Source: Blochmannia endosymbiont of Camponotus modoc (GTDB taxonomy: Bacteria; Pseudomonadota; Gammaproteobacteria; Enterobacterales; Enterobacteriaceae). Taken from it: 32,000 bases of DNA. Location of the stretch: contig NZ_CP097765.1 of NCBI RefSeq assembly GCF_023585785.1, positions 690,001 through 722,000 on the forward strand, written 5' to 3'. The notes under the pieces were generated by a model. That model made no database searches, was not told the origin of the DNA, and worked only from the letters and a program-made list of their open reading frames with translations. Of this stretch, positions 11,087 to 32,000 are shown one piece after another. Numbering within the stretch: the first letter of the stretch is position 1; the number at the start of each line of letters is the position of its first letter. A program made the position numbers and the translations under genes.

Positions 11087-11167
11087 CAAAAGTACAAAAG
11101 ATAAAACAACTAAATTTACATGAAAAGAAGTTATCTTCCATAACATATTTTTAACTTATATTAGTTT

Positions 11168-14041: not shown

Positions 14042-14059
14042 CTAAAGGATTTTATTTAT

Positions 14060-15055
14060 ATGATTAACGCATTTTCTTTAATCTTAGTAATTATTACGGG
14101 AATATCAGGTATTTTCTGGAGTATAAAAAAATTATATACATTAATGTATAATCGTGATCAACATAAAAAAATATTCCTTCAAAAATCAACCAATACTTAT
14201 CAACAATCAAAAAATGCTTATTCATTGATAATTTCATATTGTTCAATAATTTCTGAATTTATGTCCTCAATTTTTCCGATATTATTATTAGTATTTATAA
14301 TACGATCATTTGTTTTTGAACCATTCCGAATACCTTCTGGATCCATGATGCCTACTTTGTTAATAGGAGATTTTATTTTAGTAAAAAAATTCATATATGG
14401 CATTAAAAATCCTATTACTCAAAAAACATTAATTAATACTGGATATCCAAAACGCGGAGATATAATAGTATTTAAGTATCCTAAAAATACCGAACTAAAC
14501 TATATTAAACGAGTAATTGGAGAGCCAGGAGACAAAGTAATCTATAACATTATTACTAAACAATTAATAATATATGCGAATTATGTTAATAATGCTGCAT
14601 GCATACAACCATTACCCATTGTTTATAGCAATGTTGTTCCTAGTAATTTTATTCAAGTATTTGATAATGACGTAGACGGAAAGGTTAATTCTTCATTTAT
14701 TCAAATAGGACCGCATCAAAAAGGTCCTCATGGAATTCGACTTATTCAAACCACAGAATCATTCAGTGGAATAGAACACAATATCTTAACAATGATACCA
14801 CCTGGTGATCAAAACTTAATAAAAATGTATGATCAACATACAAAACACTTAATATCTGAGTGGTTAGTGCCCGCAGGTGAGTATTTTGTAATGGGAGATA
14901 ATAGGGATAACAGCGCAGATAGTCGTTATTGGGGATTTGTTCCTGAACGCAATATAATAGGAAAAGCAATAATAATTTGGATGAATATCAAAAAACAACA
15001 AGAAGGGATATGGCCAATTAGTATCCAATTCCATAGAATTGGTAATATACAATAA
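14060..15055 (+). CDS. lepB: Signal peptidase I
   Basis: The 331-aa ORF has N-terminal TM segments, the catalytic Ser box IPSGSMMPTL, the Lys box YIKRVIGEPGD and GDNRDNSADSRYWGFVP. Confidence 0.95.
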   Translation: MINAFSLILVIITGISGIFWSIKKLYTLMYNRDQHKKIFLQKSTNTYQQSKNAYSLIISYCSIISEFMSSIFPILLLVFIIRSFVFEPFRIPSGSMMPTLLIGDFILVKKFIYGIKNPITQKTLINTGYPKRGDIIVFKYPKNTELNYIKRVIGEPGDKVIYNIITKQLIIYANYVNNAACIQPLPIVYSNVVPSNFIQVFDNDVDGKVNSSFIQIGPHQKGPHGIRLIQTTESFSGIEHNILTMIPPGDQNLIKMYDQHTKHLISEWLVPAGEYFVMGDNRDNSADSRYWGFVPERNIIGKAIIIWMNIKKQQEGIWPISIQFHRIGNIQ

Positions 15056-15182
15056 GATGTTTATATTCTCTAATCATAGATTAGAATTATTGTATTACAT
15101 TTTTTGTAATTAATCTGGTTAAAATTGATTATAAAAAATTTTTTTCCATTAACATTGTAAGAATATACAACCCATAAATATT

Positions 15183-15887
15183 ATGTTAGTTAATACATTG
15201 CAAGAAAAACTTGGTTATATTTTTAATCGATATGACTTATTATTACAAGCACTAACTCATAGAAGTTCTAGCAATCGACACAATGAAAGACTAGAATTTT
15301 TGGGCGACGCTATATTAAACTATGTAATAGCTAACCTATTATATCATAGGTTTCCTCATATTAGCGAAGGAGATATGAGTAGAATGCGTGCAAATTTGGT
15401 ACGCGAAAATACATTAGCAACACTAGCACGAGAATTTAATTTAGGAGATTATCTACAATTAGGACAAGGAGAACTAAAAAGCGGGGGATATCAACGTGAA
15501 TCCATTTTAGCTAATACAATAGAAGCGTTGATAGGCGGTATATTTTTAGATAGTAATATTCAAACTATTGAAATATTAATTATTAATTGGTATAAAATTC
15601 GTATAGATCACATGGATCCTTATGCTTATGATAAACAAAAAGATCCAAAAACTCGTCTGCAAGAATATATGCAACATCGTCGTTTGCCGTTACCTGTATA
15701 TTGGATTAATCAAATAATTGGAGAGGCGCACAATCAAATATTTACGATAAATTGTCAAGTTAGTGAATTAACACAACCGATTATTGGATGCGGTTCTAGT
15801 CGGCGTAGAGCTGAACAAAATGCAGCAAAAAAAGTTTTAGAAATACTAGAGAAGAACATAACCAAAACATATGATCTGATCACGTGA
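15183..15887 (+). CDS. rnc: Ribonuclease III
   Basis: The 234-aa ORF has the signature [13 protein letters not shown] and a dsRBD C-terminus ([17 protein letters not shown]). Confidence 0.95.
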
Positions 15888-16560
15888 TCATTGATCGAAA
15901 ATCGCGTAATATATTAAGATCTTAAACAAAATCCCCTCATGTTATTAAGCTTATTCAATAAATAAGTATACAATTGTTAACAGGTATGTTTACTATTTTA
16001 AAACAATAACTTCACAAATTCAAAAATCAAATTAATTAATTTATTTCATTAATTACATTTTTGAACAAAAATCATCTCAAAAGAATTGTTAAGTCTAATT
16101 ATATATTACACATATATAAACAAACGTTCTTTGTCGATCTATTTTATAGAGATATTTTTATTTTGTTGTAATTTCAATACTGCTATATTCATATTATTTG
16201 AATCGACACAAATAATTTCAAAGCTGACAATATCAATATTTTCAGTATTCTGTGGAAGTTTAATATCAATAATATTTATATGAATAAAAATCTACATCGT
16301 ATAATAGTATATTCTTATAAAATGAAATTTATATATCTTCGCATAGTCCATTCAACCATTAAAGAATTATATGTAAAAATTGTAATTTTGAACTAGAAAT
16401 AACTATTTGTTATCAACATTATATTTTAATAGATCAACAGTACGGCATAATGTAATTTAAATTAAATAGAAACAACAAAAAATACATTTAAAAAGAAATA
16501 TATATAATTTATATTTATATTCGATAACTATCAAATAACTATATTTAAGGCATACATATA

Positions 16561-17295
16561 ATGTCAAATTTATTATTAGGTGTAAATATTGATCATATTG
16601 CAACATTACGTAATGCAAGAAATACTATATATCCTGATCCTATATATGCTGCATTCATTGCAGAACAGTCAGGAGCAGATAGTATTACTATACATTTAAG
16701 AGAAGATCGTCGTCACATTACCGATCGAGATGTCGAAATGTTACGTAAAACTATACAAACATCTATGAACTTAGAAATAGCAGCAACAGATGAAATGATT
16801 AATATCGCATGTACATTAAAACCACATTGTTGTTGTTTAGTACCTGAAAAGCGTCAAGAACTTACAACTGAAGGTGGTTTAGATGTAATTAATAAAGCAA
16901 ATAAATTACAAGATATAATATTTAAACTTACTGAAGCTGGAATTAGAGTTTCATTATTTATTGATCCTAATGAACAACAAATTAGTGTTGCATATAATAT
17001 AGGTGCTCCTTATATAGAACTACATACCGGAATGTATTCTCATGCTACAGATGCAACAACTCAAAACTTAGAATATAAACGTATTAAAAAAAGTGTGCAA
17101 TATGCTGTAAATAATGGTTTAAAAGTTAATGCTGGACATGGTCTTAATTATTATAACGTACGACCTATTGCGATGTTACCAGGAATACAAGAATTAAATA
17201 TAGGACATTCTATAATTAGCCGATCAATATTTTGTGGATTATCTAAAGCTATTCAAGATATGAAGAAATTAATACAAGACTCAAGAAGAGGTTAA
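16561..17295 (+). CDS. pdxJ: Pyridoxine 5'-phosphate synthase
   Basis: The 244-aa ORF starts [17 protein letters not shown] and has [14 protein letters not shown] and AGHGLNY blocks, as in E. coli PdxJ. Confidence 0.94.
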
Positions 17296-17297
17296 TA

Positions 17298-17675
17298 GTG
17301 ATTCACGGAATCGGCATAGATATCGTTGATATTAGGAAAATAAAAAAAATAATAACACATAGCGGAGATAAGTTAGCTACACGTATACTTAGTAAATCAG
17401 AATGGAAAATATATAAAAATAAAAAGCATCCTGTGCATTTCTTAGCAAAACGTTTCGCTGCAAAAGAAGCGGTAGCTAAAGCATTTGGCACTGGAATAAG
17501 CCAAGGAGTAACATTTAATCAAATTGAAATATTTAACGATAAACTAGGAAAACCAATGCTACATTTATTCTCATGTACAGCTCTATTAGCTAATAAATTA
17601 TCATTAAAAAAAATGCATATTACTTTATCTGATACCAATTCGTATGCATGTGCGTTTGTTATATTGGAACGATAA
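17298..17675 (+). CDS. acpS: Holo-[acyl-carrier-protein] synthase (GTG start)
   Basis: [14 protein letters not shown] and [20 protein letters not shown] compare with E. coli ILGLGTDIVEIARI and [20 protein letters not shown]. The GTG start is 2 nt after the pdxJ stop. Confidence 0.93.
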   Translation: [125 protein letters not shown]

Positions 17676-17820
17676 AAAATAAGATATCAATATTAATGAT
17701 CTTGTAATTAAAAAAATTATTTTTATGTTTTGTCGTAACACAGAATGAGTATCTCAATATGCATTTCAGAATGATTTTATTAATTGTGTGGTGTAATATT
17801 TTTTTTATTTTACAATCTGA

Positions 17821-18288
17821 ATGTATGAAATAGAAGATGTAGATACGATATGGATGCGCCATGCTATTGCATTAGCTGCCCATGCTGAAATTATTGGAGA
17901 AATATCAGTAGGAGCTGTTTTAATTCAAAATGGTAAACTTATAAGTTACGGTTGGAATTCTTCTATTATATGCCATGATCCAAGTGCTCATGCAGAAATT
18001 GTAGCATTACGTACAGGGGGGAAAATTTTGGGCAATTATCGATTATTAGGTACTACTCTTTATGTTACTCTGGAACCATGTATGATGTGTATTGGCGCGA
18101 TAATTCATGCTCGTGTTTATCGATTAGTTTGTGGTGCTAAAAACAGTAAAACGGGACAAAGATCATGGCTAAAAAATACACTCCACCATCCAATGAATAA
18201 TCATCATGTATTTTTAACAACTGGGGTATTAGAGAAAGAATGTGCTTATCAATTGAATAAATTTTTTAAACGTCAACGTCAAACCTGA
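17821..18288 (+). CDS. tadA: tRNA-specific adenosine deaminase
   Basis: The ORF has the WMRHAIALA N-terminus and the zinc ligand motifs SAHAEIVALR and LEPCMMCIGAI. Confidence 0.92.
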   Translation: MYEIEDVDTIWMRHAIALAAHAEIIGEISVGAVLIQNGKLISYGWNSSIICHDPSAHAEIVALRTGGKILGNYRLLGTTLYVTLEPCMMCIGAIIHARVYRLVCGAKNSKTGQRSWLKNTLHHPMNNHHVFLTTGVLEKECAYQLNKFFKRQRQT

Positions 18289-18591
18289 TATCATCAAAGA
18301 ATATCAATAAAATTGATAATATAAACCAACCTTATATTTGTTTAAACTACACATAAAAACCTATAGGAGAATATCGTAACAAAAAAAGATATAGACCATA
18401 TCTTACTTAACAAGTAAGTGTTAATTTCATTAAAATAAATGTAATATACTCATATTTATATTTTTATATTTTATATATCATTAATAAAATTGTTATTAAA
18501 AGTAATTATTGCTTCATTTCAATTAAAATAGATTGATGTATTTTTACGTATACAATATATTTTTTTATTTAGATAAGATAAGAGGTTATAT

Positions 18592-19845
18592 ATGTCCATA
18601 TGTACAAATTATGATATTGAATTGTGGAAAATAATACAACAAGAAACTATTAGACAAGAGGAACACATTGAATTAATAGCATCTGAAAATTATGTTAGCC
18701 CTCAAGTTATGAAAGTACAAGGCTCTCAACTTACTAATAAATACGCTGAAGGCTATCCAGGTAAACGTTATTATGGTGGATGCGAATATGTTGACATGAT
18801 TGAACAATTAGGTATTAATCGTGCAAAAAAATTATTTTCTGCAGACTATGCAAATATACAACCACATTCTGGATCACAAGCTAATTTTTCTGTTTATAAT
18901 GCCTTACTACACCCCGGTGATACAATTTTAAGTATGCATCTAAATCATGGAGGACATTTAACGCATGGCTCACAAGTAAACTTTTCAGGAAAATTATATA
19001 ATGCTGTATTTTATGGGGTTGACGAAAATGGTTGTATTAATTATGAAAAAATATATCATTTAGCTGTAAAACATCAACCGAAAATGATCGTAGGGGGGTT
19101 TTCTGCGTATTCTGGTATTATAAATTGGTCTAAAATGCGCCAGATTGCAGATGCTGTTCAAGCATATCTATTTATTGACATGGCTCATATTGCAGGATTA
19201 GTTGCTGCGGGTGTATATCCAAATCCGTTACCACACGCACATGTAGTGACTGCTACTACTCATAAAACATTAGCAGGACCCAGAGGTGGTTTAATTTTAG
19301 CTAGCGGAGGTAATGATGTATTATACAAGAAATTAGATGCTTCAGTTTTTCCTGGTTCTCAAGGAGGTCCTTTGATGCATGTTATTGCAGCTAAAGCAAT
19401 TGCTTTAAAAGAAGCCATGGATCCATCTTTTAAGGTATATCAACAAAAAATTGTTCAAAATGCTAAGATAATGGTTAAAGAATTTACATTACGCGAATTC
19501 CAGATTATCTCTGGAATGACTCATAATCATCTTTTTTTATTAGATTTAAGAAATAAAAATATCACTGGGAAAGATGCCAGTACAGCTTTAGAACGAGCTA
19601 ATATTATTGTTAATAAAAATAGCATACCAAATGATTTTAGAAGTCCTTTTATTACCTCTGGTATACGTATTGGTACGCCAGCAATAACTAGACGTAATTT
19701 TAATGAAAACGATGTACGAAAACTATCTCATTGGATCTGTGATATATTAAATCATATCGATAACAATGAAATTATTTTTTCCATAAAAACCAAAGTTTTA
19801 CGTATTTGTTCTCAGTATCCCATATATAATAATAAAAGTTATTAA
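18592..19845 (+). CDS. glyA: Serine hydroxymethyltransferase
   Basis: The 417-aa ORF has [26 protein letters not shown] and the PLP-Lys block [16 protein letters not shown]. Confidence 0.96.
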
Positions 19846-19942
19846 AATAATATTACTGTAATAAATTATATCTAGAATAGAAAAATACAAATTTGTTCTT
19901 TCGAGATACAGAAACTTATTAATATCTTATTGAGGCAGATAT

Positions 19943-20737
19943 TTAAATAATTTGTATAATTGATAAAATAGTCCGGATTATTCTCACATTACCCGCAATT
20001 ATATTTCCAGACAGTAAATAATTGTCGGTTCCGGTAAAATCTATAATTAAACCTCCCGATTCACGAATTATTAAAAAACCACTAGCTAATTTATTAGTGT
20101 AGTTATTTTTTTTAAAAAAAATAGAAACACACCCATCTACACGTCCAACAGCAACATAGGCTAAATCTAAAATAGTTGATCCAGTATAACGAAAATATGC
20201 GCATTTATTACTAAACTTACTTAGTAGATTAATAGTCATATGTTGCTGTTCATAAGAACAAGATATAGCAATAATAGCCCTATGTAAACTTTTAGCAGTA
20301 CCCACACGAATCCGATAACCATTAAGATGAGCTCCTTTTCCACGGCAAGCACTAAATAACTCATTATGTATAGGATCATATATTACTCCTATTTCGATAT
20401 GGCCTTTAATAAATACGGAAATAGATAAAGCAAAAAAAGGAAACTGCTTAATAAAATTAATATCATTATCTATAGCTCCAATTATCCAGAAAACGCTTTC
20501 TTTGCAACTCACATCATTAATATCACGGGCATTCCATGTATTAATAACAGTATGTAGCGGATAAAATTTTCGAATAATTGCCGTAATAATGTAATATGAC
20601 TCTTTATTGATTTTAGAAATAAGATTATTTATATGATTTGACTGTACACTATTTTTATCAAACAATTCATATTGTTTAACGACAAAGTTCCCCGCCCTTC
20701 TTATAGCTTGAATAGCAATATTAAGCATCGGATGCAT
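19943..20737 (-). CDS. suhB: SuhB homologue (inositol monophosphatase family / Nus-associated factor) with degenerate catalytic motifs
   Basis: The 264-aa ORF shares the N-terminus MHPMLNIA with E. coli SuhB. The YDPxxNELFxAxRGxGAxLNGYRxR, FRxTGSxxLDLAYVAxGRVDG and DFTGxxNYxLxGNIxAGN blocks are conserved. The metal-ligand motifs are not conserved (see finding). Confidence 0.88.
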   Translation of the reverse strand: MHPMLNIAIQAIRRAGNFVVKQYELFDKNSVQSNHINNLISKINKESYYIITAIIRKFYPLHTVINTWNARDINDVSCKESVFWIIGAIDNDINFIKQFPFFALSISVFIKGHIEIGVIYDPIHNELFSACRGKGAHLNGYRIRVGTAKSLHRAIIAISCSYEQQHMTINLLSKFSNKCAYFRYTGSTILDLAYVAVGRVDGCVSIFFKKNNYTNKLASGFLIIRESGGLIIDFTGTDNYLLSGNIIAGNVRIIRTILSIIQII

Positions 20738-21583
20738 AAAGTATTCATCCAGTAATTCTCATTAAATGAAAAATAGAACATATCAAAACCTGCCCACATA
20801 TTATAAAACTATATTTTTTTAAATAACACAGATATTGTATTATAATTGAACTCACCACGTAATACATGTGTTCTTAACATACATAATCACTAAAAATACC
20901 TTCAATCTCATGTTATAAATAAAACATTCATTTTCATTACAAATATATGTAGGATATACGATACAGATCCGTTCATAGATTTATTATTTCTGTGAAAATA
21001 ATAAATTGCATTACAATGAAAGATCGAATTCTTTAAAAATTAATTAAAAAAGTATTTTGTATGGACATGTTGATAAACAGTGATACACAATATAACAATC
21101 CACTATTATTTAATATATTTTTTAAAAAAAACTGCATTATTTTCACTAAAAATATTTTTTTATAAATAGTTAATTTTTATTACTACAAATAATACCAATA
21201 CTTACAATCATTTGTTATGGTCAAATTTTTATTACAACATTACATACGAAAAGTATTGTACATAATTGAAATAACGCTTTACTATCGATTTAATATACAC
21301 TGCTTACAGCATATATTATAAATATGATGTATCGTTAACATGTATTTATATAACCTCAATTAAACGTTTACAGAGATAAAAATATAAAATAGGTTTCAAT
21401 ATTTTATATAGTAACAAATAATAATATCATATAAAATGAATGTTTTGACGTAAAATATAAATCAATCCTAAGAATAAATATATTTTAGAGCATTTAATTT
21501 AATATATTATACAAATAGCGCTGATTTTATAATTTTTATATTTTATACATCAAAATAAGTTTTTGATTTTTGGAGTATGTTAG

Positions 21584-22753
21584 ATGAAGTTACCAATATA
21601 TTTTGACTATGCTGCTACTACTCCCGTAGATCCCAGAGTAGTAGAAAAAATGATACAATATTTTACCCTAGACGGAATATTTGGTAACCCGTCTTCTCGT
21701 TCTCATTATTATGGATGGAAAGCAGAGGAAGCGATAGATTTAGCGCGTAAACAAATTGCTCAGTTGATAGGTGCTGAATCACGTGAAATCATTTTTACTT
21801 CAGGAGCTACTGAATCAGTAAATTTAGCTATTAAAGGAATAGCTCAATCTTATCGCAAAAAAGGAAAGCATATTATTACCAGCATGACGGAACACAAATC
21901 AGTTTTAGATACTTGTCAATATCTTGAGAATAAAGGGTTTGAAATTACCCGTATAACTCCACAACCCAATGGTTTAATCGCTTTCGAACAAATTAGTAAC
22001 GCACTACGTGATGATACAATTTTATTATCTATTATGCATGTAAATAATGAAATCGGTGTAATCCAAGACATCAAAAAAATTGGTGAATTATGTCGTCTAC
22101 ATGACATAATATTTCATGTAGACGCAACCCAAAGCGTTGGTAAATTACATATTGATCTATCTGATTTACCGGTGGATTTAATGTCTTTCAACGGCCATAA
22201 ACTATATGGCCCGAAAGGTATAGGTGGTTTGTACATACGACAACATAGGTATCCAAAACTCCATATTACTGCTCAAATGCATGGAGGAGGACATGAATAC
22301 GGTATGCGTTCTGGTACATTGCCAGTCCATCAAATAGTTGGTATGGCTGAAGCATATCGTTTAGCTAGAGAAACAATGACGACAGAAATGATTTATTTAA
22401 AAAAAATGAGAGATCGTCTATGGCAAGGATTACAACAAATTGAAGGAGTATTAATTAATGGCGATTTAGAGTATAGTATAGGCACATTGTTGAATATTAG
22501 TTTTAGTAATATTGACGGCGAAACACTAATTATAGCATTAAAAGATTTTGCATTATCTTCTGGATCTGCTTGTACCTCTGGCACTTTAAATCCATCACAT
22601 GTATTGCAGGCTTTAGGAAGAAATAATGAACTAGCATATAATTCAATCAGATTTTCTCTAGGGCGTTTCACAACTGAAGAAGAAATAGAGTACGCTATCC
22701 ATCATATAGCTGCTACTGTTATGAAATTAAATGCTATGATACATTTATTATAA
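21584..22753 (+). CDS. iscS: Cysteine desulfurase IscS (389 aa, short C-terminus)
   Basis: [19 protein letters not shown], the PLP-Lys block [14 protein letters not shown] and the catalytic Cys loop [21 protein letters not shown] match E. coli IscS. A GGAG SD lies upstream. Confidence 0.94.
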
Positions 22754-23290
22754 TTTTACAATAAAAAATAAATTAATTTATTTTTCATATATGAAGTTTA
22801 TGACGATAATCAGTATATCTATAAAAAAATCCAAGAAATTTTATTAATATCATTCGAAATAATAAATAAAAAATAATTATTAAAAAGAATATTTTTTTGT
22901 AGATTAGGTTTCATCTCTTATTTTTTAATATTTTTATTATTAAGTTTTCCACATAATTAATTTCTATGTAACCATTTTTACGTATTTGTTTTAATGTTAA
23001 AAATTTAAGATATTGCATTAATGTTATTCGTAAACGGTAAGGATTTTATTATCAATCAACACTCGGATCATATAATTAAGATCGATAAAAATATTTTATT
23101 TCACAATAAAATACAAATATGGATATTTCTACTTGTCTGTTTTGTGTTTATTCTGAGTTTAATTTGTAGTTTTTGAATCGTTGTAGATTTCAAAAGCATT
23201 AAATAATATAAACAATATTATCTGTAATAATTATTGTTTTTATATTTATTTCCTATACAATTATATTAATAAAGACTAATAGGAGTTTTT

Positions 23291-23701
23291 ATGGTTTGTA
23301 AAGAAAATACGCTGTCAATCATAAAACCAGATGCCGTTGCTAAAAACATAATCGGATCTATAATTAGTAGATTCGAGGCTGCTGGTCTTATTATTGTGGG
23401 AGCTAAACTATTACAATTAACATATATACAAGCTTCCGAATTTTATTTTGAACATCAAAAAAAATATTTTTTTGACAGTTTAATAAATTTTATGATTTCT
23501 GGACCAGTATTTGTACAAATACTGGAAGGTAATAATTCGATACAACGTAATAGAGAAATTATGGGAGCCACTGATCCAGCGAATGCGTTAGCAGGTACCA
23601 TTAGATCCGATTATGGTTATAATTATACTAAAAATGCCATTCATGGATCAGATTCTAAAAAATCTGCTATACGTGAAATTTCTTATTTCTTTGATATATA
23701 A
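23291..23701 (+). CDS. ndk: Nucleoside diphosphate kinase
   Basis: The 136-aa ORF has [29 protein letters not shown] and the catalytic His in NAIHGSDS. Confidence 0.94.
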
Positions 23702-23905
23702 AAACATGCGGATACATTACCTGTTATCCATAAAAGTAATCATTTTAGCTGCGCAAAAAAACGGTTTTGATTAATGAATTAGTTTATCAAAAAAATATTA
23801 ACGTAAAATATAGATCAATTTAAAGTTGAAAAAATAGTGGTAATGTAGTCAATTGCTATTGAGCTCGTGCTCATAGAGCATTGCTATTGATCAACTTTCG
23901 TAAAA

Positions 23906-25024
23906 ATGGATCTTGAGAAATATATTTTTATGTATACAAAAAAAGTTAATTTACTTAACATGAACAAAGAAGAATTACTAATTTTTTTTGATAAATTAGG
24001 TGAAAAACCTTTCCGTTCTCATCAAGTAATGAGATGGATCTATCATTACTATTGTGACGATTTTAATTACATGACAAATTTAAGCAAGTCTCTAAAAATC
24101 AAATTGAAGCAAATAGCAGAAATCCGTGCTCCAATAATTATAAAAGAACAACTATCTTCAGATGGAACAATCAAATGGGCTATGAAAATTGATGAACAAC
24201 AAATCGAAACAGTTTATATTCCTGAAAATAAAAGAACCACTTTGTGCGTTTCATCACAAATTGGATGCCCTTTAGGATGTAGTTTTTGTGGAACTGCGCA
24301 GCAGGGATTTAACAGAAATCTGAATGTATCAGAGATAATTGGTCAAGTTTGGAGAGCAGCACAACTTATTAATCTCAATAAAAAAATGAAAATAAAAAAT
24401 AGATTTCCTATTACCAATATAGTATTTATGGGTATGGGAGAGCCATTGTTAAATATTGTTAATGTTGTATCGGCGATCAGAATTATATTAGATGACCTTG
24501 GTTTTAAATTATCAAAACGACGTGTTACGCTCTCAACTGCCGGAATTGTACCAGGCATAGAAAAATTAAAAAATATGATTGACGTACCGTTAGCTATATC
24601 TCTACATGCTCCAAATGATACCATTAGAAATAAGATTATGCCAATTAATAAAAAGTACAATATTAATAGCGTATTAGAAGCAGCACGTAGGTATTCGAGA
24701 GACACTAAATCTAATCACGGTAGAGTAACAATAGAGTATGTATTGTTAAAAAATATTAATGACGACGTCCTGCATGCCCATCAATTAGCAAAACAACTTC
24801 AAGGTATTCCGTGTAAAATTAACTTGATCCCATGGAACCCAATTCCGAATATACGATATGCATGTAGCTCACAGATTCGTATGCATGCATTTCTTAAAGT
24901 TTTATTAAAATATAATATAATAACCATCATACGCAAAATAAGAGGAGCGGATATTAGTGCTGCCTGCGGACAATTAACAGGAGAAGTAATTAACCGTATA
25001 AAATTACAATATAACTCATTATAA
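23906..25024 (+). CDS. rlmN: Dual-specificity 23S rRNA/tRNA A2503/A37 C2-methyltransferase (radical SAM)
   Basis: It has [18 protein letters not shown] and the radical-SAM cluster motif CPLGCSFC, plus GMGEPLLN and the C-terminal AACGQLTG. The start could instead be the Met at 23930. Confidence 0.93.
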
Positions 25025-25247
25025 AACAATATCATTGTATTTAATACTATATAAAATTAATAAGACAAAATTTTTAAAAAAAGGGATCATAAATGCAATA
25101 TAACAATTACGCATATTTACTGTGTATCCTAAAATTATAAAAATTATGATTCCTATTATAAATATAATTAAATCTCTTAATTGATATAATCAATAAATTT
25201 AAACAAATATATTTATTGTTTAAAAACATGAAAATATAGGAGATTAT

Positions 25248-26378
25248 ATGAATAATATTACGAACATTGTTCGTCGAAAATCTACACGTATTTATATTGG
25301 CAATGTTCCTATTGGAGATGGCGCTCCTATTGCGGTACAATCCATGGTAAATACTCGTACTACAAATATTGTAGAAACAGTTACTCAAATTAACGCCCTA
25401 AAAAAAGCAGGGGTAGATATTGTCCGAATATCGATACCTACTATGGATGCGGCTGAAGCTTTCAAAATAATTAAACGAAAAGTAATTAATATTCCATTAG
25501 TAGCAGATATTCATTTTGATTATCGAATTGCATTGAAAGTAGCTGAGTACGGAGCAGATTGCTTGCGTATCAATCCTGGTAACATCGGGAACAATAAACG
25601 TATTCGATCTGTAGTGCATTGTGCTCAAGATAAAAATATATCTATTCGTATTGGTGTAAATTCTGGATCTCTTGAGCGTGATTTACAAAAAAAGTATGAC
25701 GGAAATCCAACAGAACATGTATTATTAGAATCAGCAATGAGACACGTAGATATTTTAGATAAATTAAACTTTCATCAATTTAAAGTTAGCGTTAAATCTT
25801 CTGATGTGCTAATAACAATACAAGCCTACCGCGCATTAGCATCAAAAATAGATCAACCATTACATATAGGCCTTACTGAAGCCGGAGCTTTACGTAATGG
25901 GACAGTAAAATCTGCAATGGCTGTAGGTTTCTTATTAAACGAAGGCATCGGGGATACAATACGTATATCATTAGCTACAGACCCTATAGAAGAAGTTAAG
26001 GTGGCATTTGATATTTTAAGAGCTTTGAAAATTCGTGCTCATGGTATTAATTTTATAGCTTGTCCAGGATGTGCGCGACAAGAATTTAACGTAATCAATG
26101 TAGTTAATGCGTTAGAAGAAAAAGTAAGTGATATTACAACGCCTATGGATGTATCTATTATTGGATGTGTGGTTAACGGACCAGGAGAAGCATTAAAATC
26201 AACCATTGGTGTTGCCGGTGCACGTAATAAAAGTGGTATATATGAAGATGGTATACGACAACAAAAACGCTGCGATAATATATCAATAGTTGAAGAATTA
26301 GAACGTCGTATTCGAGCTAAATCTAAATTATTAAATCAAAATAACCCACGACACTGCCCTATCACATATCATAAATAA
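25248..26378 (+). CDS. ispG: 4-hydroxy-3-methylbut-2-en-1-yl diphosphate synthase
   Basis: [25 protein letters not shown] is almost identical to E. coli. The cluster ligands are [10 protein letters not shown] and [11 protein letters not shown]. An AGGAG SD is present. Confidence 0.96.
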
Positions 26379-26391
26379 TCGAAGATTACAA

Positions 26392-27699
26392 ATGCTTAAA
26401 TATGATAAAAATATCCAATCTATCCGCGGTATGCATGATTATTTGCCGAAAGATACGATTCTATGGCAATACATAGAAAATATACTTATAACTATATTAA
26501 ACAGTTACGGATACAAGGAGATTAGATTTCCTATTATTGAAGACACAAATTTATTCAAACGTTCAATCGGAGAAGTAACAGATGTAATAGAAAAAGAAAT
26601 GTATAATTTTACTGATCGTAACGGTAATAATTTAACGTTACGTCCAGAGGGAACATCTGGATGCGTTCGAGCAGGTATTAAGCATGGTCTGTTTTATCAC
26701 CAAGAACAACGTCTGTGGTATATTGGTCCGATGTTTCGCTATGAACGTCCTCAAAAAGGACGCTATAGACAATTTCATCAATTTAGTGCTGAAGCTTTTG
26801 GTCAAATAGGACCCGACATAGATGCTGAGTTAATTTTAATTACTGCTCGTTGTTGGAAAGAATTAGGAATTAATCATCATTTATCTTTAGAATTAAATTC
26901 AATTGGCTCTTTATCATCTAGAATAAATTATCGTAAAAAATTAATAACTTTTTTAGAAAAAAATTTAAACAACTTGGACAACAATGCTCTACGACGTTTA
27001 TACTCTAATCCATTGCGCATCTTAGATACCAAAAATGCTAAAACTAAAGAATTACTACTTAATGCGCCTATATTAAGCGATCACTTAGATGATGATTCAC
27101 GTGTTCATTTTTCCGAATTATGTCAATTATTAAATCTCTTAGGAGTGTCGTACAGGGTTAATCCGTATCTAGTACGCGGTTTAGATTATTATAACAAAAC
27201 CGTTTTTGAATGGGTTACTGATAGTTTAGGAGTAAAAAAAACTATTTGTGCTGGTGGTCGTTACGATGAATTAGTCCAAGAATTAGGAGGGTATTCAGTA
27301 CCTGCGATAGGATTTTCCATAGGATTAGAACGTGTAATATTATTAATGCAAGAAATTAACAATATTACCATTTTAAATAAAAATATATATATTGATGTAT
27401 ATTTAATTAGTATAGGAGATAATTCTCGAAAACACGCAATGTTATTATCTGAAAATATTCGCTCAACATTACCATCGCTTCGATTAATGGTACATCATGG
27501 AGGAGGTGACATAAAAAAACAATTTTATTGTGCTAATAAACATAAACCACAAATCATATTAATCATGAACGAAAAGAATGTTCTTGAAAAAACGATTATT
27601 TTAAAAAATTTACAATCAAAAACTCAAGAAATATTAAAACATGATGCAGTTTCCGAAAGATTAAAAAATATACTACATATTACATGCAATTCTACTTGA
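26392..27699 (+). CDS. hisS: Histidine--tRNA ligase
   Basis: The 435-aa ORF has the class II motifs [40 protein letters not shown] and GGRYDELV...GFSIGLERV. Confidence 0.95.
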
Positions 27700-28049
27700 T
27701 AATAAGTGATCACAAAAATGATATGAATTTTTCTATAAAATAAAATATCATTAATATTTAACGCATCTTAATAGATTTGAAGAATATACATGAAATTAAA
27801 ATTATGACGATACAGATGAAAACTATTTAAACATTAATCTATTTATACTTATTTATACATACGTGCAAAAGATAAAAATCTAATCTTTCAGCAATCAATG
27901 AGGGCTATTTGCTGGCATTTGTAGTGATTATAATTATACTTTAACCATTCAATAATTACTCAAAACAGAAATAACTTTATTGTGTTATTTAAGACTAATA
28001 TTATGTATGTTTATTTATATACAACCACTTATTTATGGATAATTAAATA

Positions 28050-29465
28050 ATGCTACCTATCATCACGCTAATTGGGCAAAAAAATGTAGGTAAATCTACT
28101 TTATTCAATAAATTAACACATACACATGATGCTTTAATATCTACTTATCCAGGATTAACGCGAGATCGACAATATGGTTATTTTCAATGCAAACAATTTA
28201 AATCTATTCTTATTGATACTGGGGGTATTGATAAATTTTGTAGTACAAAAACAAAAAATATTCAAAGTTATGTAACCTATCAAACAACTCTCGCAATGCA
28301 AGAAGCTGATATTCTATTATTTGTTATGGATAGACACTCTGTAGGAACATCTATAAATTATGATATTTTTAATTTTCTAAAAAAAATAAAAAAAAACATA
28401 TTTGTTGTCATTAATAAAATTGATAACATCCCACATCATATACATACCACGATGTGGGATTATTGTTCTTTTGGTATAAAAAATATTATCTTTATTTCAG
28501 CGATTCATGGGCATGGAATTGATAATTTATTAGAAAATATATCTTCATTAATTTCAAAAAATATATTTTTTTACAAAAATAAAATACCTGAAAGTAATAT
28601 AAATAACACTATTTATCAAAACCACATCATTAATCCGTCATTTAATAAAGTAGATTCTGCTATCGCAATAGCTGTTGTAGGACGTCCTAATTCCGGTAAA
28701 TCTACTTTTGTCAATCATATTTTAGGAGAAACTCGTATGATTGCTTGTAACACACCAGGAACTACTCGAAATTGCGTTCATACGCCTACAATATATGACA
28801 AACAAAAATACATATTGATTGATACAGCAGGCGTACAAAAAAGCAAAAGAATAGATAATGTAGCGGAGCAAATTTCTATTCTAAAAACATTTCAAATTAT
28901 TAAGACCGCGCACATCCTATTATTCATAGGAGATGCAAATATTGGGATATCTGACCAAGATTTACATTTGTTACGATTTATCCTAAATAATGGTAAAACA
29001 TTAATAATCGTTATTAACAAATGGGATTTGATATCTCCAGATTTGCGTGATACAATTAAAAAAAATTTATACGAAAAAATTAATTTTATTAGTTTTGCTC
29101 AAATACATTTTATTTCGGCATTGTACGGAAACGGAATTAAAACATTATTTCAAACAATCAAAGCAACAAACTTGCGGGCTCGTTATACAAAAACCATCAA
29201 TACCGCACATTTAATTCGAACATTGCACGCTGCAATCGCTAAATGTCCACCTCCATTTTTACAAGGTAAAAGAATTAAACCCAAATATATTCATGTCGGA
29301 CAACATGAACCATTGACTCTGATTATTCATGGCACTCACGTCAGCAAATTACCTGATGATTATAAACGATATCTAAAAAAACATTTTTATCGTATGTTAA
29401 ACATCACAGGTATTTTATTACACATTCAATTTAAAGATAATATTAATCCATTTATTAACAAATAA
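28050..29465 (+). CDS. der: Ribosome-associated GTPase Der (EngA), double GTPase domains
   Basis: GD1 carries GQKNVGKSTLFNKL, DTGG and NKID. GD2 carries GRPNSGKSTFVN, DTAG and NKWD. The KH-like C-terminus has PDDYKRYLKKHFYR. Confidence 0.94.
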   Translation: MLPIITLIGQKNVGKSTLFNKLTHTHDALISTYPGLTRDRQYGYFQCKQFKSILIDTGGIDKFCSTKTKNIQSYVTYQTTLAMQEADILLFVMDRHSVGTSINYDIFNFLKKIKKNIFVVINKIDNIPHHIHTTMWDYCSFGIKNIIFISAIHGHGIDNLLENISSLISKNIFFYKNKIPESNINNTIYQNHIINPSFNKVDSAIAIAVVGRPNSGKSTFVNHILGETRMIACNTPGTTRNCVHTPTIYDKQKYILIDTAGVQKSKRIDNVAEQISILKTFQIIKTAHILLFIGDANIGISDQDLHLLRFILNNGKTLIIVINKWDLISPDLRDTIKKNLYEKINFISFAQIHFISALYGNGIKTLFQTIKATNLRARYTKTINTAHLIRTLHAAIAKCPPPFLQGKRIKPKYIHVGQHEPLTLIIHGTHVSKLPDDYKRYLKKHFYRMLNITGILLHIQFKDNINPFINK

Positions 29466-29560
29466 AAATATGTCATATTAACACACACAGATGCAACGAA
29501 AACAACTGACATTTATATAGAATTATAGAATTGAAAAAAAATCAGCAAACATATTGAGCT

Positions 29561-31120
29561 TTAACGATCTATTGCTTCTATATAATTTAATTTCAAAGCA
29601 TTACAAGTATATTGTCTAATTTTATTTACTAATATAAGATCACCATTTAAACTCTTAGTATATGACGGGATCATATCTATAAGTTTATTTTTCCACACAT
29701 CACTATTAATTTTATTATTAAACATTGTATCCAAAAGTTGCAATATTATTGAAACTACAGTAGATGCTCCCGGAGATGCGCCAAGAAGTGCCGATAAAGT
29801 ACCATCACTAGAATTAACTACCTCTGTTCCAAATTGTAACATACCTCTCTTGTTGCTATTTCTTTTAATAATTTGAACACGTTGTCCTGCTGTTACTAAA
29901 GTCCAATCTGACGGGTTAACTGCCGGATAGTATTCCCTAAGCTCATCAATACGGTCCATGTTTGACATAACTAACTGACTGATTAAATACTTAATCAAAT
30001 CAAAATTATCTATCCCAACTTGCAAAATTGGAATAATATTATGCTTATTTAAAGAATGAAATAAATCTAGCCATGATCCATATTTTAAAAATTTACTGCT
30101 GAAAGTTGCAAATGGGCCAAACAACAAAATCTTCTCACCATTCAATATTCTAGTATCTATATGAGGTACTGACATTGGAGGCGTGTTAACAGATGCTTTT
30201 CCATACACTTTAGCTAAATGTTGTGCAACTATCTTCGGATTTTTTGTGACTAAAAACTGACCTCCTACCGGAAATCCAGCGTATCCACAAACTTCTGGAA
30301 CTCCAGAACTTTGCAAAAGACTAAGAGATCTTCCTCCGGCTCCTATAAAAACATAATTTGTACGAATACATTTTTTGTGGTTACACCGTCGATCAATTAC
30401 ATGTACATCCCAAGTTGCATCGTTATTATTCTGTACAGATCTAACATCATGCTGTAAATACATTTTAAAATTTACATTTTTTTTCAATTCATTCAATAAT
30501 TGTTGAGTAAGTGCTCCAAAATTAACATCTGTACCCATCTCCATGCGAGTAGCGGCTATTTTCTGCGATACATTACGTCCGTCAATAATAAGAGGAGCCC
30601 ACTGACGAATTTGCTGTAAATCTTCCGAATATACCATACCACTAAACAAAACACTATTTAGCAATGCTTGAAAGCGTTTTTTTAAAAAACAAACGTTTTC
30701 TTCTCCCCATACAAAACTCATATGCGGTACATTATTAATAAAGGAACTCGGATATTTAAGTACTTTTATTTGTACTAAATATGCCCAAAATTGCCGCGAT
30801 ATTTCAAATGCTTCATTAACAGCAATAGCCTTTGAAATATCAACAGAACAATTTTTATTATTATATTGGGTATAGTTCAGCTCGCAAAATGCTGCATGTC
30901 CTGTACCAGCGTTATTCCATACATTAGAGCTTTCCTGTGCTGGCTGATTAAGACGCTCATATATATGAATTCTCCAAGTTGGCTCAAGAATTGTTAAGAA
31001 CATACCAAAAGTTGCGCTCATAATCCCAGCTCCGATTAGCACCACGTCTGCTGAAGATGTAATTTTAATCAATCGATGTTGTTGATTTATAACAGCAACA
31101 TTACTCATATAATTACTCAA
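29561..31120 (-). CDS. mqo: Malate:quinone oxidoreductase
   Basis: The 519-aa ORF has DVVLIGAGIMSATFG (FAD fold), QESSNVWNNAGTGHAAFCELNY, PHMSFVWGEENV, GFPVGGQFLV, AKVYGKASVNTPPMSVPHIDTR and LLGASPGAST, all colinear with E. coli Mqo. Confidence 0.94.
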   Translation of the reverse strand: MSNYMSNVAVINQQHRLIKITSSADVVLIGAGIMSATFGMFLTILEPTWRIHIYERLNQPAQESSNVWNNAGTGHAAFCELNYTQYNNKNCSVDISKAIAVNEAFEISRQFWAYLVQIKVLKYPSSFINNVPHMSFVWGEENVCFLKKRFQALLNSVLFSGMVYSEDLQQIRQWAPLIIDGRNVSQKIAATRMEMGTDVNFGALTQQLLNELKKNVNFKMYLQHDVRSVQNNNDATWDVHVIDRRCNHKKCIRTNYVFIGAGGRSLSLLQSSGVPEVCGYAGFPVGGQFLVTKNPKIVAQHLAKVYGKASVNTPPMSVPHIDTRILNGEKILLFGPFATFSSKFLKYGSWLDLFHSLNKHNIIPILQVGIDNFDLIKYLISQLVMSNMDRIDELREYYPAVNPSDWTLVTAGQRVQIIKRNSNKRGMLQFGTEVVNSSDGTLSALLGASPGASTVVSIILQLLDTMFNNKINSDVWKNKLIDMIPSYTKSLNGDLILVNKIRQYTCNALKLNYIEAIDR

Positions 31121-31583
31121 ATAATAGTATACTTAACGTATTTAGTTACCGTAATAAAAACAAAAAACTTTTAATAACATGCAATTTATACACCACACAA
31201 AAACCCTTATAATTAGGACCACATCTTAATAAAGAAATAAAAAATAAATTCCAAAAAAACAATTAAAAACAACATTAAATCATATTTTTAACGTTTAATA
31301 CAAATAACATAATTAAAATAATAATTTTATTTTAACAAAAACTTAACTGTTGACGTTTCATGGATACATAATACACTTACAACTAATACCATATCAATTA
31401 CACATAACTTTAACAAAATTCTATAATGATTAATTTTTATAAATTGTATTCTAAACTTGATTAATTACATAATTTATGATAGAACTAACACCGTTAGGTG
31501 TTAAAGAAATATAATATAACCCACATAATTATAGTCTACAGTGTGCTGTTCCTTGTTCTTCTAGAATTAGTTTGCTGGTGTTC

Positions 31584-31603
31584 GGGGTTTGGTTTTGGTT
31601 TGG
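31584..31603 (+). other. G-run motif GGGGTTTGGTTTTGGTTTGG (two-tetrad G-quadruplex-type pattern)
   Basis: Four G runs of at least 2 nt (31584-87, 31591-92, 31597-98, 31602-03) are separated by T3-T4 loops, inside the G/T-rich block just right of the composition switch. Confidence 0.5.
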
Positions 31604-31724
31604 TGTCTGTGTTTTAGTGTGCTTTAAATAAAAAAATTTCTTGGTACTGGAAGGTATGGTGATGAAATCGAATTGCCATCGTAGCAGTGTCGCTATTGTA
31701 GTTTAGGGTGTACTGATAATTGTA

Positions 31725-32000
31725 ATGTTGACTTTTGTTAAAGAGGCTTTGACTTTTGATGATGTGTTGATCGTTCCGTCTCGTTCGAGAGTACTTCCTG
31801 CGGAGACGATTTTAAAAAGTTTTTTGACTAATGCTGTTTCTTTGAACATTCCTATTGTATCATCGGCGATGGATACAGTGACTGAGGCAAGTTTAGCTAT
31901 TGCTTTAGCGCAAGAAGGCGGGGTGGGTTTTATTCATAAAAATATGTCTTTGGATCAACAGATTAATGAGGTGCGTCGGGTTAAACGTTATGAAAGTGGA
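31725..32000 (+). CDS. guaB: IMP dehydrogenase, 5' fragment (first 92 codons; continues beyond the window)
   Basis: The translation [27 protein letters not shown]...[35 protein letters not shown]...[10 protein letters not shown] compares with E. coli [25 protein letters not shown]...[35 protein letters not shown]...VRRVKKHESG. It is shorter than the ORF-track threshold, so it is not listed there. Confidence 0.93.

What the first reader, a model, noticed from the sequence alone, without database searches (positions are those of the whole stretch)
31121..31724. Abrupt origin-type strand-composition switch in the mqo-guaB spacer, without canonical oriC hallmarks
I counted bases by hand on the + strand. 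Positions 31141-31540 have G=23 against C=58, with A far above T. Positions 31541-31720 have G=51 against C=19, with T above A. The flip happens within about 20 nt around 31540. It also reaches into coding sequence. guaB (+, right of the switch) uses TTG for 6 of its first 10 Leu codons. der (+, left of the switch) uses TTG for none of its first 10 (TTA/CTA/CTT/CTC instead), and its first 130 nt have C>G in the sense strand. mqo and pssA (-, left of the switch) are G/T-enriched in their sense strands. The spacers I sampled further left (20761-20880, 6156-6400) are also C>G and A>T on +. By the established rule, leading strands are G>C. A C-rich to G-rich transition read 5'->3' therefore marks diverging forks, meaning an origin and not a terminus. 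Reverse-complementing the window does not change this sign. However, I find no perfect DnaA box (the best match is TTATACACC at 31186-31194) and no GATC anywhere in the 604-bp spacer. The neighbours are also not the usual mnmG/mioC/dnaA/dnaN genes. The site coincides with a synteny break. E. coli has der-xseA-guaB, whereas here xseA is gone and mqo is inserted in inverse orientation. dnaA-less insect endosymbionts (Blochmannia floridanus, Wigglesworthia) are known. A sharply localised switch point with no DnaA-type features would be a useful handle on how such genomes start replication.
Basis: partly seen in the sequence, partly recalled or inferred. Interest (0 to 1): 0.75.

Follow-up and report, generated by a model that had tools for sequence, protein, structure and literature searches.

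The report
Extra replication-start signature in Blochmannia
In one branch of the carpenter-ant endosymbiont Blochmannia, which has no DnaA initiator, the DNA strand bias flips sharply between the mqo and guaB genes as it would at a replication origin, 137 kb from where the origin has been placed, although only about 55 kb of the 791-kb genome could be examined.

Summary
The window is Blochmannia, a close relative of B. pennsylvanicus. The composition change point lies at 31541 (support 31529-31543).

At four-fold degenerate sites the switch is replication-type, not a by-product of divergent transcription. It persists at least 9.4 kb to the right (guaBA, ure) and at least 45 kb to the left (mqo, through the rRNA operon, to rpoB).

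No inversion explains it. Gene order and orientation match E. coli and three Blochmannia that lack the switch (B. floridanus, B. turneri, B. obliquus). The switch is present in B. pennsylvanicus BPEN, B. vicinus and B. ocreatus.

A roughly 50-bp promoter-like block plus hairpin, found only in the lineages with the switch, sits 40-90 bp left of it.

Published whole-genome evidence conflicts. A maximum-likelihood fit for BPEN puts the origin breakpoint at mnmG (791.4 kb). It puts the terminus at 262 kb, which is the antipode of this spacer and not of mnmG.

Most likely this is a lineage-specific, DnaA-independent initiation site that probably coexists with the switch at mnmG. It is not shown to be the sole origin. 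I found no published mention of the site.

The parts
31109..31724 (.). mqo-guaB intergenic spacer (616 bp) that contains the polarity switch
   Evidence: The ORFs and family assignments are. The spacer is 99.2% identical to that of CP097758.1.
31529..31543 (.). Composition change point (best estimate 31541). C/A-rich on the + strand to the left, G/T-rich to the right. Inferred point of fork divergence.
   Evidence: Likelihood-ratio statistic 79.9 against a shuffle maximum of 25.1.
31452..31485 (+). Conserved promoter-like block AAACTTGATTAATTACATAATTTATGATAGAAC, with TTGATT at 31457-31462, TG at 31477-31478 and TAGAAC at 31480-31485. It is oriented towards guaB.
   Evidence: It is the only part of the spacer that still aligns with B. 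ocreatus (49 bp, 84%, E 2e-10) and B. vicinus. It is unique in the window. It is present in L001, L007, L008 and L011 and absent from the B. floridanus, B. turneri and B. obliquus loci. Function as a promoter is inferred, not shown. The generic promoter scan is uninformative in this AT-rich DNA.
31487..31504 (+). Conserved 7-bp hairpin TAACACC-GTTA-GGTGTTA immediately after the block
   Evidence: It folds. The stem is kept with two-sided changes in B. vicinus (CCCT/AGGG) and partly kept in B. ocreatus. With only three lineages the covariation evidence is weak.
31541..31724 (+). G/T-rich segment next to guaB (G51/C19), including the G-run tract GGTGTTCGGGGTTTGGTTTTGGTTTGGTGTCTGTG at 31576-31610
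   Evidence: and repeat family D7.
31109..31528 (-). Segment next to mqo, G/T-rich on the mqo sense strand. No recognisable gene remnant.
   Evidence: Base counts are. A tblastn of Mqo and GuaB against the spacer gives only chance-level hits.
29561..31108 (-). mqo (malate:quinone oxidoreductase). Its sense strand has leading-type composition.
   Evidence: NCBIfam match at 3e-247. Four-fold GC skew +0.42.
31725..32000 (+). The 5' part of guaB. Its sense strand has leading-type composition.
   Evidence: Four-fold GC skew +0.40 and TA skew +0.35 over the full gene in the extended sequence.
4701..31528 (.). The part of the reversed-polarity domain that lies in the window (pssA to mqo). The - strand has leading-type composition.
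   Evidence: Four-fold sites: - strand genes have GC skew +0.345 and TA skew +0.17, while + strand genes have -0.014 and +0.01. Fisher tests give p = 1e-3 within the block and p = 3e-6 against the right side.
1..4700 (+). 16S (partial), tRNA-Glu and 23S operon. It is transcribed head-on to the inferred leftward fork.
   Evidence: Rfam and ARAGORN. The same polarity continues beyond the operon into rpoC and rpoB in L009 and L010.

Best explanation
The mqo-guaB spacer holds a lineage-specific, DnaA-independent site where replication forks diverge, in other words an origin. It arose in the B. pennsylvanicus / B. vicinus / B. ocreatus branch of Blochmannia without any change in gene order.

From about 31530-31545 one fork runs rightward through guaBA and ure, co-directional with those genes. 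The other runs leftward through mqo, the der-to-lepA cluster, the rRNA operon and rpoBC, head-on to most of them.

In B. pennsylvanicus-type genomes this site most likely coexists with a second origin-type switch at the ancestral position next to mnmG. The leftward domain would then end somewhere between about 700 kb and mnmG.

What is shown: the polarity switch, its extent, its restriction to certain lineages, and the absence of any rearrangement. What is inferred: that the polarity reflects fork direction, which is the standard leading-strand G>C, T>A rule. What is conjecture: that the conserved promoter-like block and hairpin 40-90 bp from the switch are the cis element, and that initiation is transcription-primed (an R-loop processed by RNase H and extended by Pol I, as at ColE1 or in E. 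coli cSDR).
For: (1) At four-fold sites the sense-strand GC skew is +0.40 for genes right of the spacer. To the left it is +0.35 for - strand genes and -0.01 for + strand genes, so the - strand is leading-type there. Intergenic spacers follow the same model (Fisher p = 3e-6 and 1e-3).

(2) The published BPEN genome shows the same pattern (+0.35, 0.00, +0.49), with the switch at about 654,278 of 791,654.

(3) The pattern is stronger in B. vicinus (+0.29; -0.30; +0.67) and B. ocreatus (+0.33; -0.33; +0.62).

(4) The polarity continues through the rRNA operon. In B. ocreatus pssA is +0.64, purH +0.40, rpoC -0.34 and rpoB -0.42. In the B. pennsylvanicus-like genome rpoC and rpoB are both -0.11, against +0.40 expected for a leading-strand gene.

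(5) B. floridanus, B. turneri and B. obliquus have identical local gene order but no switch. Their der-side genes score +0.69, +0.51 and +0.44, and their spacer likelihood-ratio statistics are at the null level.

(6) Orientation of every gene relative to guaBA is as in E. coli. Gene order from guaB to mnmG is collinear in all three Blochmannia groups. No inversion is therefore available as an explanation. B. pennsylvanicus, B. vicinus and B. ocreatus are deeply diverged (Mqo 68-80% identical), so each must be maintaining the skew now.

(7) The conserved block occurs only in the lineages that have the switch, right at the switch.

(8) The maximum-likelihood terminus of BPEN is 262,280 (256,595-280,481). 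Its antipode, 652.4-676.3 kb, includes the spacer at 654.05-654.66 kb. The antipode of mnmG is 133 kb off. The gene table lists no tus, so termination should occur where the forks meet.

(9) Origin relocation inferred from skew is already documented in dnaA-less B. vafer and B. floridanus.
Against: The whole-genome maximum-likelihood fit at four-fold sites puts the BPEN origin breakpoint at 791,425 with a tight interval. Three papers place the B. pennsylvanicus skew shift near mnmG. The leftward domain must therefore flip back before mnmG, so this cannot be the only switch.

A simple model of two origins firing together predicts a terminus near 327 kb, not 262 kb.

I sampled only about 55 kb of a 791-kb genome.

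purH in the B. pennsylvanicus-like genomes (+0.05) does not fit the pattern.

The leftward fork would meet the rRNA, rpoBC and ribosomal-protein operons head-on, which is normally selected against.

The B. vicinus and B. ocreatus assemblies were seeded on the BPEN reference.

No initiator or helicase loader is known for this organism: dnaA, priA and dnaC are all absent from the gene table.

The promoter and R-loop step has no direct evidence. The G-run is not well conserved and the leader has no unusual fold (z = -0.18).
Confidence: 0.55

Rival explanations
1. One reading: the spacer is the single chromosomal origin of this lineage. The reported shift at mnmG would then be an artefact of gene orientation, because genes flip coding strand there.
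For: The BPEN terminus estimate is the antipode of the spacer, not of mnmG, and no tus is listed. Raw skew on the published top strand steps from -0.28 (guaB side) to +0.04 (mqo to pssA), then -0.18 (rRNA operon) and -0.11 (rpoBC). A raw-skew plot would therefore hide the switch and show a sign change only where gene orientation flips. The polarity shows no decay over 45 kb. In B. ocreatus the raw skew itself flips at the spacer.
Against: The Morton & Morton fit used four-fold sites with a separate coding-strand term, and it still chose 791,425 with a 6-kb confidence interval. That requires leading-type composition on the guaB-sense strand over most of about 700-791 kb.
Confidence: 0.15
2. Relic of rearrangement. 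The block from mqo to rpoB spent most of its history inverted, and either has recently flipped back or exists as flip-flop isomers. Its composition would then record the old orientation.
For: The boundary is sharp, as at a breakpoint. The B. vicinus assembly has perfect palindromes hinged exactly at the switch, which suggests a site prone to inverted-repeat events. Inversions do occur in Blochmannia despite the loss of recA.
Against: Orientation is the ancestral, E. coli-like one in all seven Blochmannia genomes examined, with or without the switch, including the Sanger-finished BPEN. The three deeply diverged lineages that carry the switch would each need a recent, precise re-inversion. I found no long inverted repeat that pairs the spacer with another site in the window region tested (31000-32000 only). 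The amplitude is full in B. pennsylvanicus-like genomes and larger in B. vicinus and B. ocreatus, not decaying.
Confidence: 0.1
3. The polarity domain is real but comes from a strand-asymmetric process other than initiation at this point. One example is a strong fork-arrest and restart site. Another is domain-wide antisense read-through transcription from the mqo promoter.
For: Rep, DinG, UvrD, PriA and RecA are all missing or eroded, so fork behaviour may be unusual. The switch sits at a divergent promoter region.
Against: Diverging leading-type composition on both sides is the signature of diverging forks. Antisense transcription would have to outweigh the sense transcription of rRNA, rpoBC and lepA over more than 45 kb. 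The transcription-linked term estimated here (about 0.15-0.18) is smaller than, or similar to, the strand term.
Confidence: 0.1
4. An ordinary local effect of two divergently transcribed genes, with sense strands G/T-rich on each side and no link to replication.
For: mqo and guaB are divergent, and the switch lies between them near a promoter-like element.
Against: Left of the spacer the + strand genes (der to lepA, rpoBC) have lost the sense-strand G and T excess that the same genes show in B. floridanus, B. turneri and B. obliquus. Those species have the same divergent pair but no switch in the spacer.
Confidence: 0.02

Closest known systems
Origin relocation inferred from skew in B. vafer and B. 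floridanus (yibN-hldD spacer, about 32 kb from mnmG; Williams & Wernegreen 2010 and 2012, PMC3017870 and PMC3268670)
   Same: Same genus, no dnaA, and no DnaA-box cluster. The switch lies in an intergenic spacer with no change in gene order, and the call rests on strand composition alone.
   Different: The site is different (mqo-guaB, 137 kb from mnmG) and so is the branch (B. pennsylvanicus, B. vicinus, B. ocreatus). Here the switch appears to coexist with a second origin-type switch at mnmG. It places the rRNA and rpoBC operons head-on to the fork. A conserved sequence block marks it. None of the papers I could search mentions this site.
Enterobacterial oriC (mnmG-mioC region, DnaA-dependent)
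   Same: Origin-type skew polarity, and a location in an intergenic region flanked by promoters.
   Different: There are no DnaA boxes, no GATC cluster, no dnaA, dam or seqA in the genome, and different neighbouring genes.
R-loop-primed, DnaA-independent initiation: the ColE1 RNA II origin and E. coli cSDR (oriK) sites in rnhA mutants. This comparison rests on my own knowledge.
   Same: No DnaA is needed. A promoter lies just upstream of the start point. The non-template strand downstream is G-rich. rnhA and polA are retained.
   Different: ColE1 and cSDR need PriA for helicase loading, and the gene table lists no priA. No R-loop evidence exists here. rnhA is intact, whereas cSDR needs it to be lost.
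E. coli strains engineered with a second origin (oriC + oriZ). This comparison rests on my own knowledge.
   Same: Two origin-type sites on one chromosome. Forks from the ectopic origin meet rRNA operons head-on and are delayed. The terminus is displaced.
   Different: Those strains are artificial, depend on DnaA and are unstable without suppressors. This would be a natural state kept for millions of years.
DnaA-independent replication in some cyanobacteria and other dnaA-less symbionts (PMC7198777)
   Same: Loss of DnaA dependence, possibly with polyploidy.
   Different: Those cyanobacteria have weak or irregular skew and no defined start site. Here the switch can be placed to within about 15 bp.

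Membership tests
DnaA-dependent bacterial oriC | Cluster of DnaA boxes (TTWTNCACA) | tested here: not met
   There are no consensus matches in 31109-31724. The whole window has 5 against 5.8 expected by chance. The best match is the one-mismatch TTATACACC at 31186.
DnaA-dependent bacterial oriC | dnaA gene present in the genome | not testable with these tools
   The whole genome was not available. PMC4389277 reports dnaA absent from all Blochmannia of Camponotus, including B. pennsylvanicus, intact in B. turneri and a pseudogene in B. obliquus.
DnaA-dependent bacterial oriC | GATC (Dam/SeqA) clustering | tested here: not met
   There are no GATC sites in the spacer. dam and seqA are absent from the published gene table.
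DnaA-dependent bacterial oriC | Conserved neighbours (mnmG/mioC or dnaA/dnaN) | tested here: not met
   The neighbours are mqo and guaB. mnmG lies 137 kb away in BPEN coordinates.
Skew-defined replication origin | Sign change of origin polarity at neutral (four-fold and intergenic) sites | tested here: met
Skew-defined replication origin | Polarity persists for tens of kb on both sides | tested here: met
   It persists at least 9.4 kb to the right and at least 45 kb to the left through rpoB. Nothing further could be fetched.
Skew-defined replication origin | It is the global breakpoint or minimum of the whole chromosome | tested here: inconclusive
   This could not be computed. The published maximum-likelihood fit for BPEN gives 791,425 (mnmG), not 654 kb. 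For B. ocreatus and B. vicinus no genome-wide analysis exists.
Skew-defined replication origin | Terminus-type breakpoint roughly opposite | tested here: met
   The published BPEN terminus is 262,280 (256,595-280,481). The antipode of the switch at 654,278 is 258,451, which lies inside that interval.
Inversion breakpoint | Gene order or orientation differs from relatives across the boundary | tested here: not met
   The order ureG..guaA-guaB | mqo-der-hisS... is the same in seven Blochmannia genomes, with or without the switch. Relative orientation is the same as in E. coli.
R-loop / transcript-primed origin (ColE1- or cSDR-like) | Promoter directed at the start site, a stable RNA-DNA hybrid, and RNase H plus Pol I | not tested
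   Only indirect evidence exists. There is a conserved promoter-like block and hairpin and a G-rich non-template strand. rnhA and polA are listed in the gene table. The transcription start site and the hybrid were not tested. No priA is listed.

The most novel reading that the evidence does not exclude
B. pennsylvanicus-type Blochmannia keep two working replication start sites on one small chromosome. One is the ancestral site next to mnmG. The other is a newer, earlier-firing site in the mqo-guaB spacer, set off by transcription from the conserved promoter and hairpin block.

The leftward fork from the new site would be held up by head-on rRNA, rpoBC and ribosomal-protein operons, in a cell that lacks Rep, UvrD, DinG, PriA and Tus. 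That would explain both the short reversed domain and a terminus opposite the new site.

If so, initiation sites in DnaA-less bacteria are evolutionarily mobile. Three positions would then be documented in one genus.
Probability: 0.3. Interest if true: 0.85.

Novelty: new variant of a known kind. Interest (0 to 1): 0.62.

Why it matters
How bacteria that have lost DnaA start chromosome replication is an open question. A start point located to within about 15 bp, marked by a short block conserved only in the lineages that have the switch, gives a concrete sequence to test. Sister species with the same gene order but no switch serve as natural controls. The finding would also revise the accepted origin map of B. 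pennsylvanicus and explain why that genome was flagged in 2007 for unequal replication arms. It may be a natural example of two origins, or of serial origin relocation, in a bacterial chromosome. It further shows that raw GC-skew plots can miss a switch when gene orientation opposes it.

Tried and rejected
- The single genome-contig scan, with Mqo as query, returned only an unrelated Cryobacterium MAG contig (L002). I obtained cross-species loci through the Mqo and PurH homologue searches and 12 contig look-ups instead.
- Exact-protein look-ups failed for mqo read from the TTG start and for pssA.
- I first took purH (+0.05) as a sign that the reversed block ended at the rRNA operon, and considered a model in which the head-on rRNA operon acts as a fork barrier. 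rpoB and rpoC in two genomes showed that the polarity continues past the operon, so I dropped that model.
- Degraded xseA or a duplicated mqo in the window spacer: tblastn gave only chance hits.
- RNA families: no Rfam match in the spacer even at E <= 1.
- The annotated 51-aa ORF in CP097758.1 is interrupted in the 99.4%-identical window, so it is spurious.
- The generic promoter scan is uninformative in this AT-rich DNA (10 sites against 5.3 +/- 2.3 expected).
- The guaB leader has no unusual fold (z = -0.18).
- Degnan et al. 2005 (PMC1182215) is not held in the library. A search for CP097758 found no papers.
- I could not reach the mnmG region or anything between rplJ and mnmG. Look-ups accept only proteins from the window or from homologue searches, and any query I could supply for genes there would return enteric proteins, not Blochmannia ones.
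- The Mqo and PurH neighbour-joining trees put B. ocreatus with the B. pennsylvanicus and B. vicinus group. The 507-gene tree of PMC9251289 puts its host, and nearly identically the symbiont, nearer B. floridanus. The number of gains and losses of the switch therefore stays open. The single-gene trees may also be biased by the strand switch itself.

Full report
**What the window is.**
The window carries a partial 16S gene, tRNA-Glu and 23S, then pssA ... lepA ... glyA, suhB, iscS, ndk, rlmN, ispG, hisS and der on the + strand, mqo on the - strand, and the start of guaB on the + strand. Its Mqo protein is identical to that of CP097758.1, a 790,842-bp Blochmannia genome, and the DNA is 99.4% identical over 12.4 kb. 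Mqo is 96% identical to that of B. pennsylvanicus BPEN. The window corresponds to about 659.9-691.9 kb of CP097758.1 in reverse orientation. mqo most likely starts at the ATG at 31108, so the spacer is 31109-31724.

Every hand count is exact. A two-segment likelihood scan places the change point at 31541 (support 31529-31543). The likelihood-ratio statistic is 79.9, against a maximum of 25.1 in 200 shuffles. The spacer has no GATC and no DnaA-box consensus. The Leu-codon and der claims also hold.

**Is it replication-type, or just two divergent genes?**
I joined the window to the 9.1 kb that follow it in CP097758.1 and measured skew at four-fold degenerate sites in the sense strand of each gene.

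| Gene set | GC skew | TA skew |
|---|---|---|
| Right of the spacer (guaB, guaA, ureDABCFG; all +) | +0.40 | +0.23 |
| Left of the spacer, - strand genes (mqo, suhB, ung, nadK, bamE, smpB, pssA) | +0.35 | +0.17 |
| Left of the spacer, + strand genes (der ... lepA) | -0.01 | +0.01 |

A purely transcriptional effect would give both gene sets on the left the same value. The data instead fit a coding-strand term of about 0.17 plus a strand term of about +0.2 to the right and about -0.2 to the left. Intergenic spacers follow the same model. The differences are significant (p = 3e-6 for right + against left +; p = 1e-3 for left - against left +). Raw skew stays at +0.25 to +0.35 for the full 9.4 kb beyond the spacer, so the "reverts within a few kb" outcome does not occur.

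**How far left does it go?**
A locus centred on purH shows that the same polarity continues past the rRNA operon.
- In B. ocreatus, pssA is +0.64, purH +0.40, rpoC -0.34 and rpoB -0.42.
- In a B. pennsylvanicus-like genome (CP097754), pssA is +0.50 and rpoC and rpoB are both -0.11. A leading-strand gene in that genome scores about +0.40. purH (+0.05) is an outlier.

The domain is therefore at least 45 kb long. The inferred leftward fork meets the rRNA and rpoBC operons head-on.

**Comparison across species.**
I fetched the mqo locus from six other genomes. All have the same order, ureG ... guaA-guaB | mqo-der-hisS....

| Genome | guaB-side genes | der-side genes (same strand as guaB) | mqo / mqo-strand genes |
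|---|---|---|---|
| BPEN (switch at about 654,278 of 791,654) | +0.35 | 0.00 | mqo +0.49 |
| B. vicinus | +0.29 | -0.30 | +0.67 |
| B. ocreatus | +0.33 | -0.33 | +0.62 |
| B. floridanus | +0.68 | +0.69 | -0.58 |
| B. turneri | +0.54 | +0.51 | 0.00 |
| B. obliquus | +0.32 | +0.44 | -0.29 |

The first three genomes have the switch. In the last three the der-side genes are as leading-type as the guaB side, mqo is lagging-type or neutral, and the spacers show no change point (likelihood-ratio statistic 9-13, the null level). The "synteny break" is shared by all seven genomes, so it is not the cause.

**No inversion is available.**
Each gene's orientation relative to guaBA is the same as in E. coli, where mqo's slot is held by xseA, also divergent from guaB. 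In the published ortholog table, which follows each genome's own gene order, the run from guaB through rpoBC to the last gene before mnmG is the same in B. obliquus, B. turneri and the Camponotus Blochmannia. The lineages that carry the switch are deeply diverged (Mqo 68-80% identical). Each must therefore be maintaining the reversed composition in the present orientation. This points to a change in fork direction, not moved DNA.

**A conserved element at the switch.**
Between the window, B. vicinus and B. ocreatus the spacer is otherwise unalignable. One block survives, at window 31452-31504: AAACTTGATTAATTAYAWAAWTYATGMTAGAA followed by a short hairpin.
- It is unique in the window.
- It is present in all loci with the switch and absent from the three without.
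- It reads as TTGATT-N17-TAGAAC (TAAAAT in B. vicinus) with an upstream TG, pointing at guaB.
- The hairpin stem changes on both sides in B. vicinus.
- The change point lies 40-90 bp to its right in the window, and at or within the block in BPEN and B. ocreatus.

Its function is inferred only. The generic promoter scan is uninformative in this AT-rich DNA, no RNA family matches and the leader has no unusual fold.

**What is published.**
Three Blochmannia genome papers place the origin by raw GC skew next to mnmG in B. pennsylvanicus, B. turneri and B. obliquus. [quoted passage not shown] None mentions mqo or guaB. The paper that produced the 2022 genomes does not analyse skew, and it seeded its assemblies on BPEN.

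Raw skew explains how the switch could be missed. On the published top strand it steps from -0.28 (guaB side) to +0.04 (mqo to pssA), -0.18 (rRNA operon) and -0.11 (rpoBC). Most genes there lie on the other strand, so the visible sign change comes only where gene orientation flips at mnmG.

**The only whole-genome test I could find.**
Morton & Morton (2007) fitted two breakpoints to four-fold sites with a separate coding-strand term.
- For B. floridanus they obtain an origin at 674,777, which agrees with yibN-hldD.
- For BPEN they obtain an origin at 791,425 (787,737-794,169) and a terminus at 262,280 (256,595-280,481).
- They list BPEN among 31 chromosomes with unequal arms (33% and 67%).

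This cuts both ways. The origin breakpoint is at mnmG, so the leftward domain must flip back somewhere between rplJ (about 700 kb) and mnmG, and the spacer is not the only switch. The terminus, however, is 133 kb from the antipode of mnmG. Its own antipode (652.4-676.3 kb) contains the spacer (654.05-654.66 kb). The gene table lists no tus, rep, dinG, priA, dnaC, recA, dam or seqA, and uvrD is a pseudogene, while rnhA, rnhB, polA and dnaB are present. Without Tus, forks should terminate where they meet.

**Conclusion.**
The best reading (0.55) is a lineage-specific, DnaA-independent initiation site in the spacer that probably coexists with the switch at mnmG.
- The sole-origin version (0.15) conflicts with the maximum-likelihood origin.
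- A history of inversion followed by re-inversion (0.10) needs three independent, precise reversions.
- Another strand-asymmetric process (0.10) cannot be excluded.
- Plain divergent transcription (0.02) is refuted.

Transcript-primed initiation from the conserved block is my preferred mechanism, but it is conjecture.

A full-genome four-fold-site profile and read-depth profiling from the public reads would settle the matter. I could run neither, because only about 55 kb of the genome could be fetched.

Noticed in passing
L007 7958-10000 (B. vicinus CP097763.1, guaB-mqo spacer): The spacer is 2,043 bp instead of about 400-620 bp. In window orientation it is built of perfect palindromes (1-898 at 100%; 424-1957 at 99.3%), with 1-475 repeated at 1483-1957. 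It includes two inverted copies of mqo codons 1-106. The 52-bp hinge lies at the position homologous to the skew switch. This is either a real fold-back duplication at the putative start site or an artefact of the reference-seeded MinYS/MindTheGap assembly.
   Followed up: partly
window 4701-4778 and the whole window: There is no 5S rRNA gene after the 23S gene; pssA follows on the other strand within 78 bp. The published gene table lists rrf elsewhere, after aroE, so the rRNA operon is split.
   Followed up: partly
window 1-1204 with L003 17250-19388: The arrangement pssA-23S-tRNA-Glu-16S | purH-hupA-rpoC-rpoB looks like a recombinant between the E. coli rrnG (pssA side) and rrnE (purH side) contexts. 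That would be an old inversion across the origin, mediated by rRNA operons. The E. coli contexts are recalled from memory and were not checked.
   Followed up: no
window 15888-16560, 20738-21583, 22754-23290: These intergenic spacers are unusually long (673, 846 and 537 bp) and lie where E. coli has era/recO, iscR and neighbouring genes, and the rest of the isc operon. They are probably eroded gene remnants. The gene table lists era only for B. obliquus.
   Followed up: no
L001 9477-9632 (CP097758.1), equivalent to window about 31476-31632: CP097758.1 annotates a 51-aa ORF across the switch point. In the 99.4%-identical window the frame is closed by a stop after 12 codons, so the ORF is spurious.
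   Followed up: yes
L010 10001-11629 and L003 17760-19388 (purH of B. pennsylvanicus-like genomes): purH has a four-fold GC skew of +0.05, while its neighbours on the same strand score +0.4 to +0.5 and B. ocreatus purH scores +0.40. This outlier within the reversed domain is unexplained.
   Followed up: no
L008/L009 and L007 (B. ocreatus, B. vicinus): In these two genomes the strand term is much larger on the mqo side (about 0.48) than on the guaB side (about 0.11-0.18). That is the opposite of what a recently reversed domain would show. It is unexplained.
   Followed up: no
window 7269-7660: The tmRNA gene is on the - strand, with tag peptide ANNTTYKESVALAA. It is ordinary.
   Followed up: no
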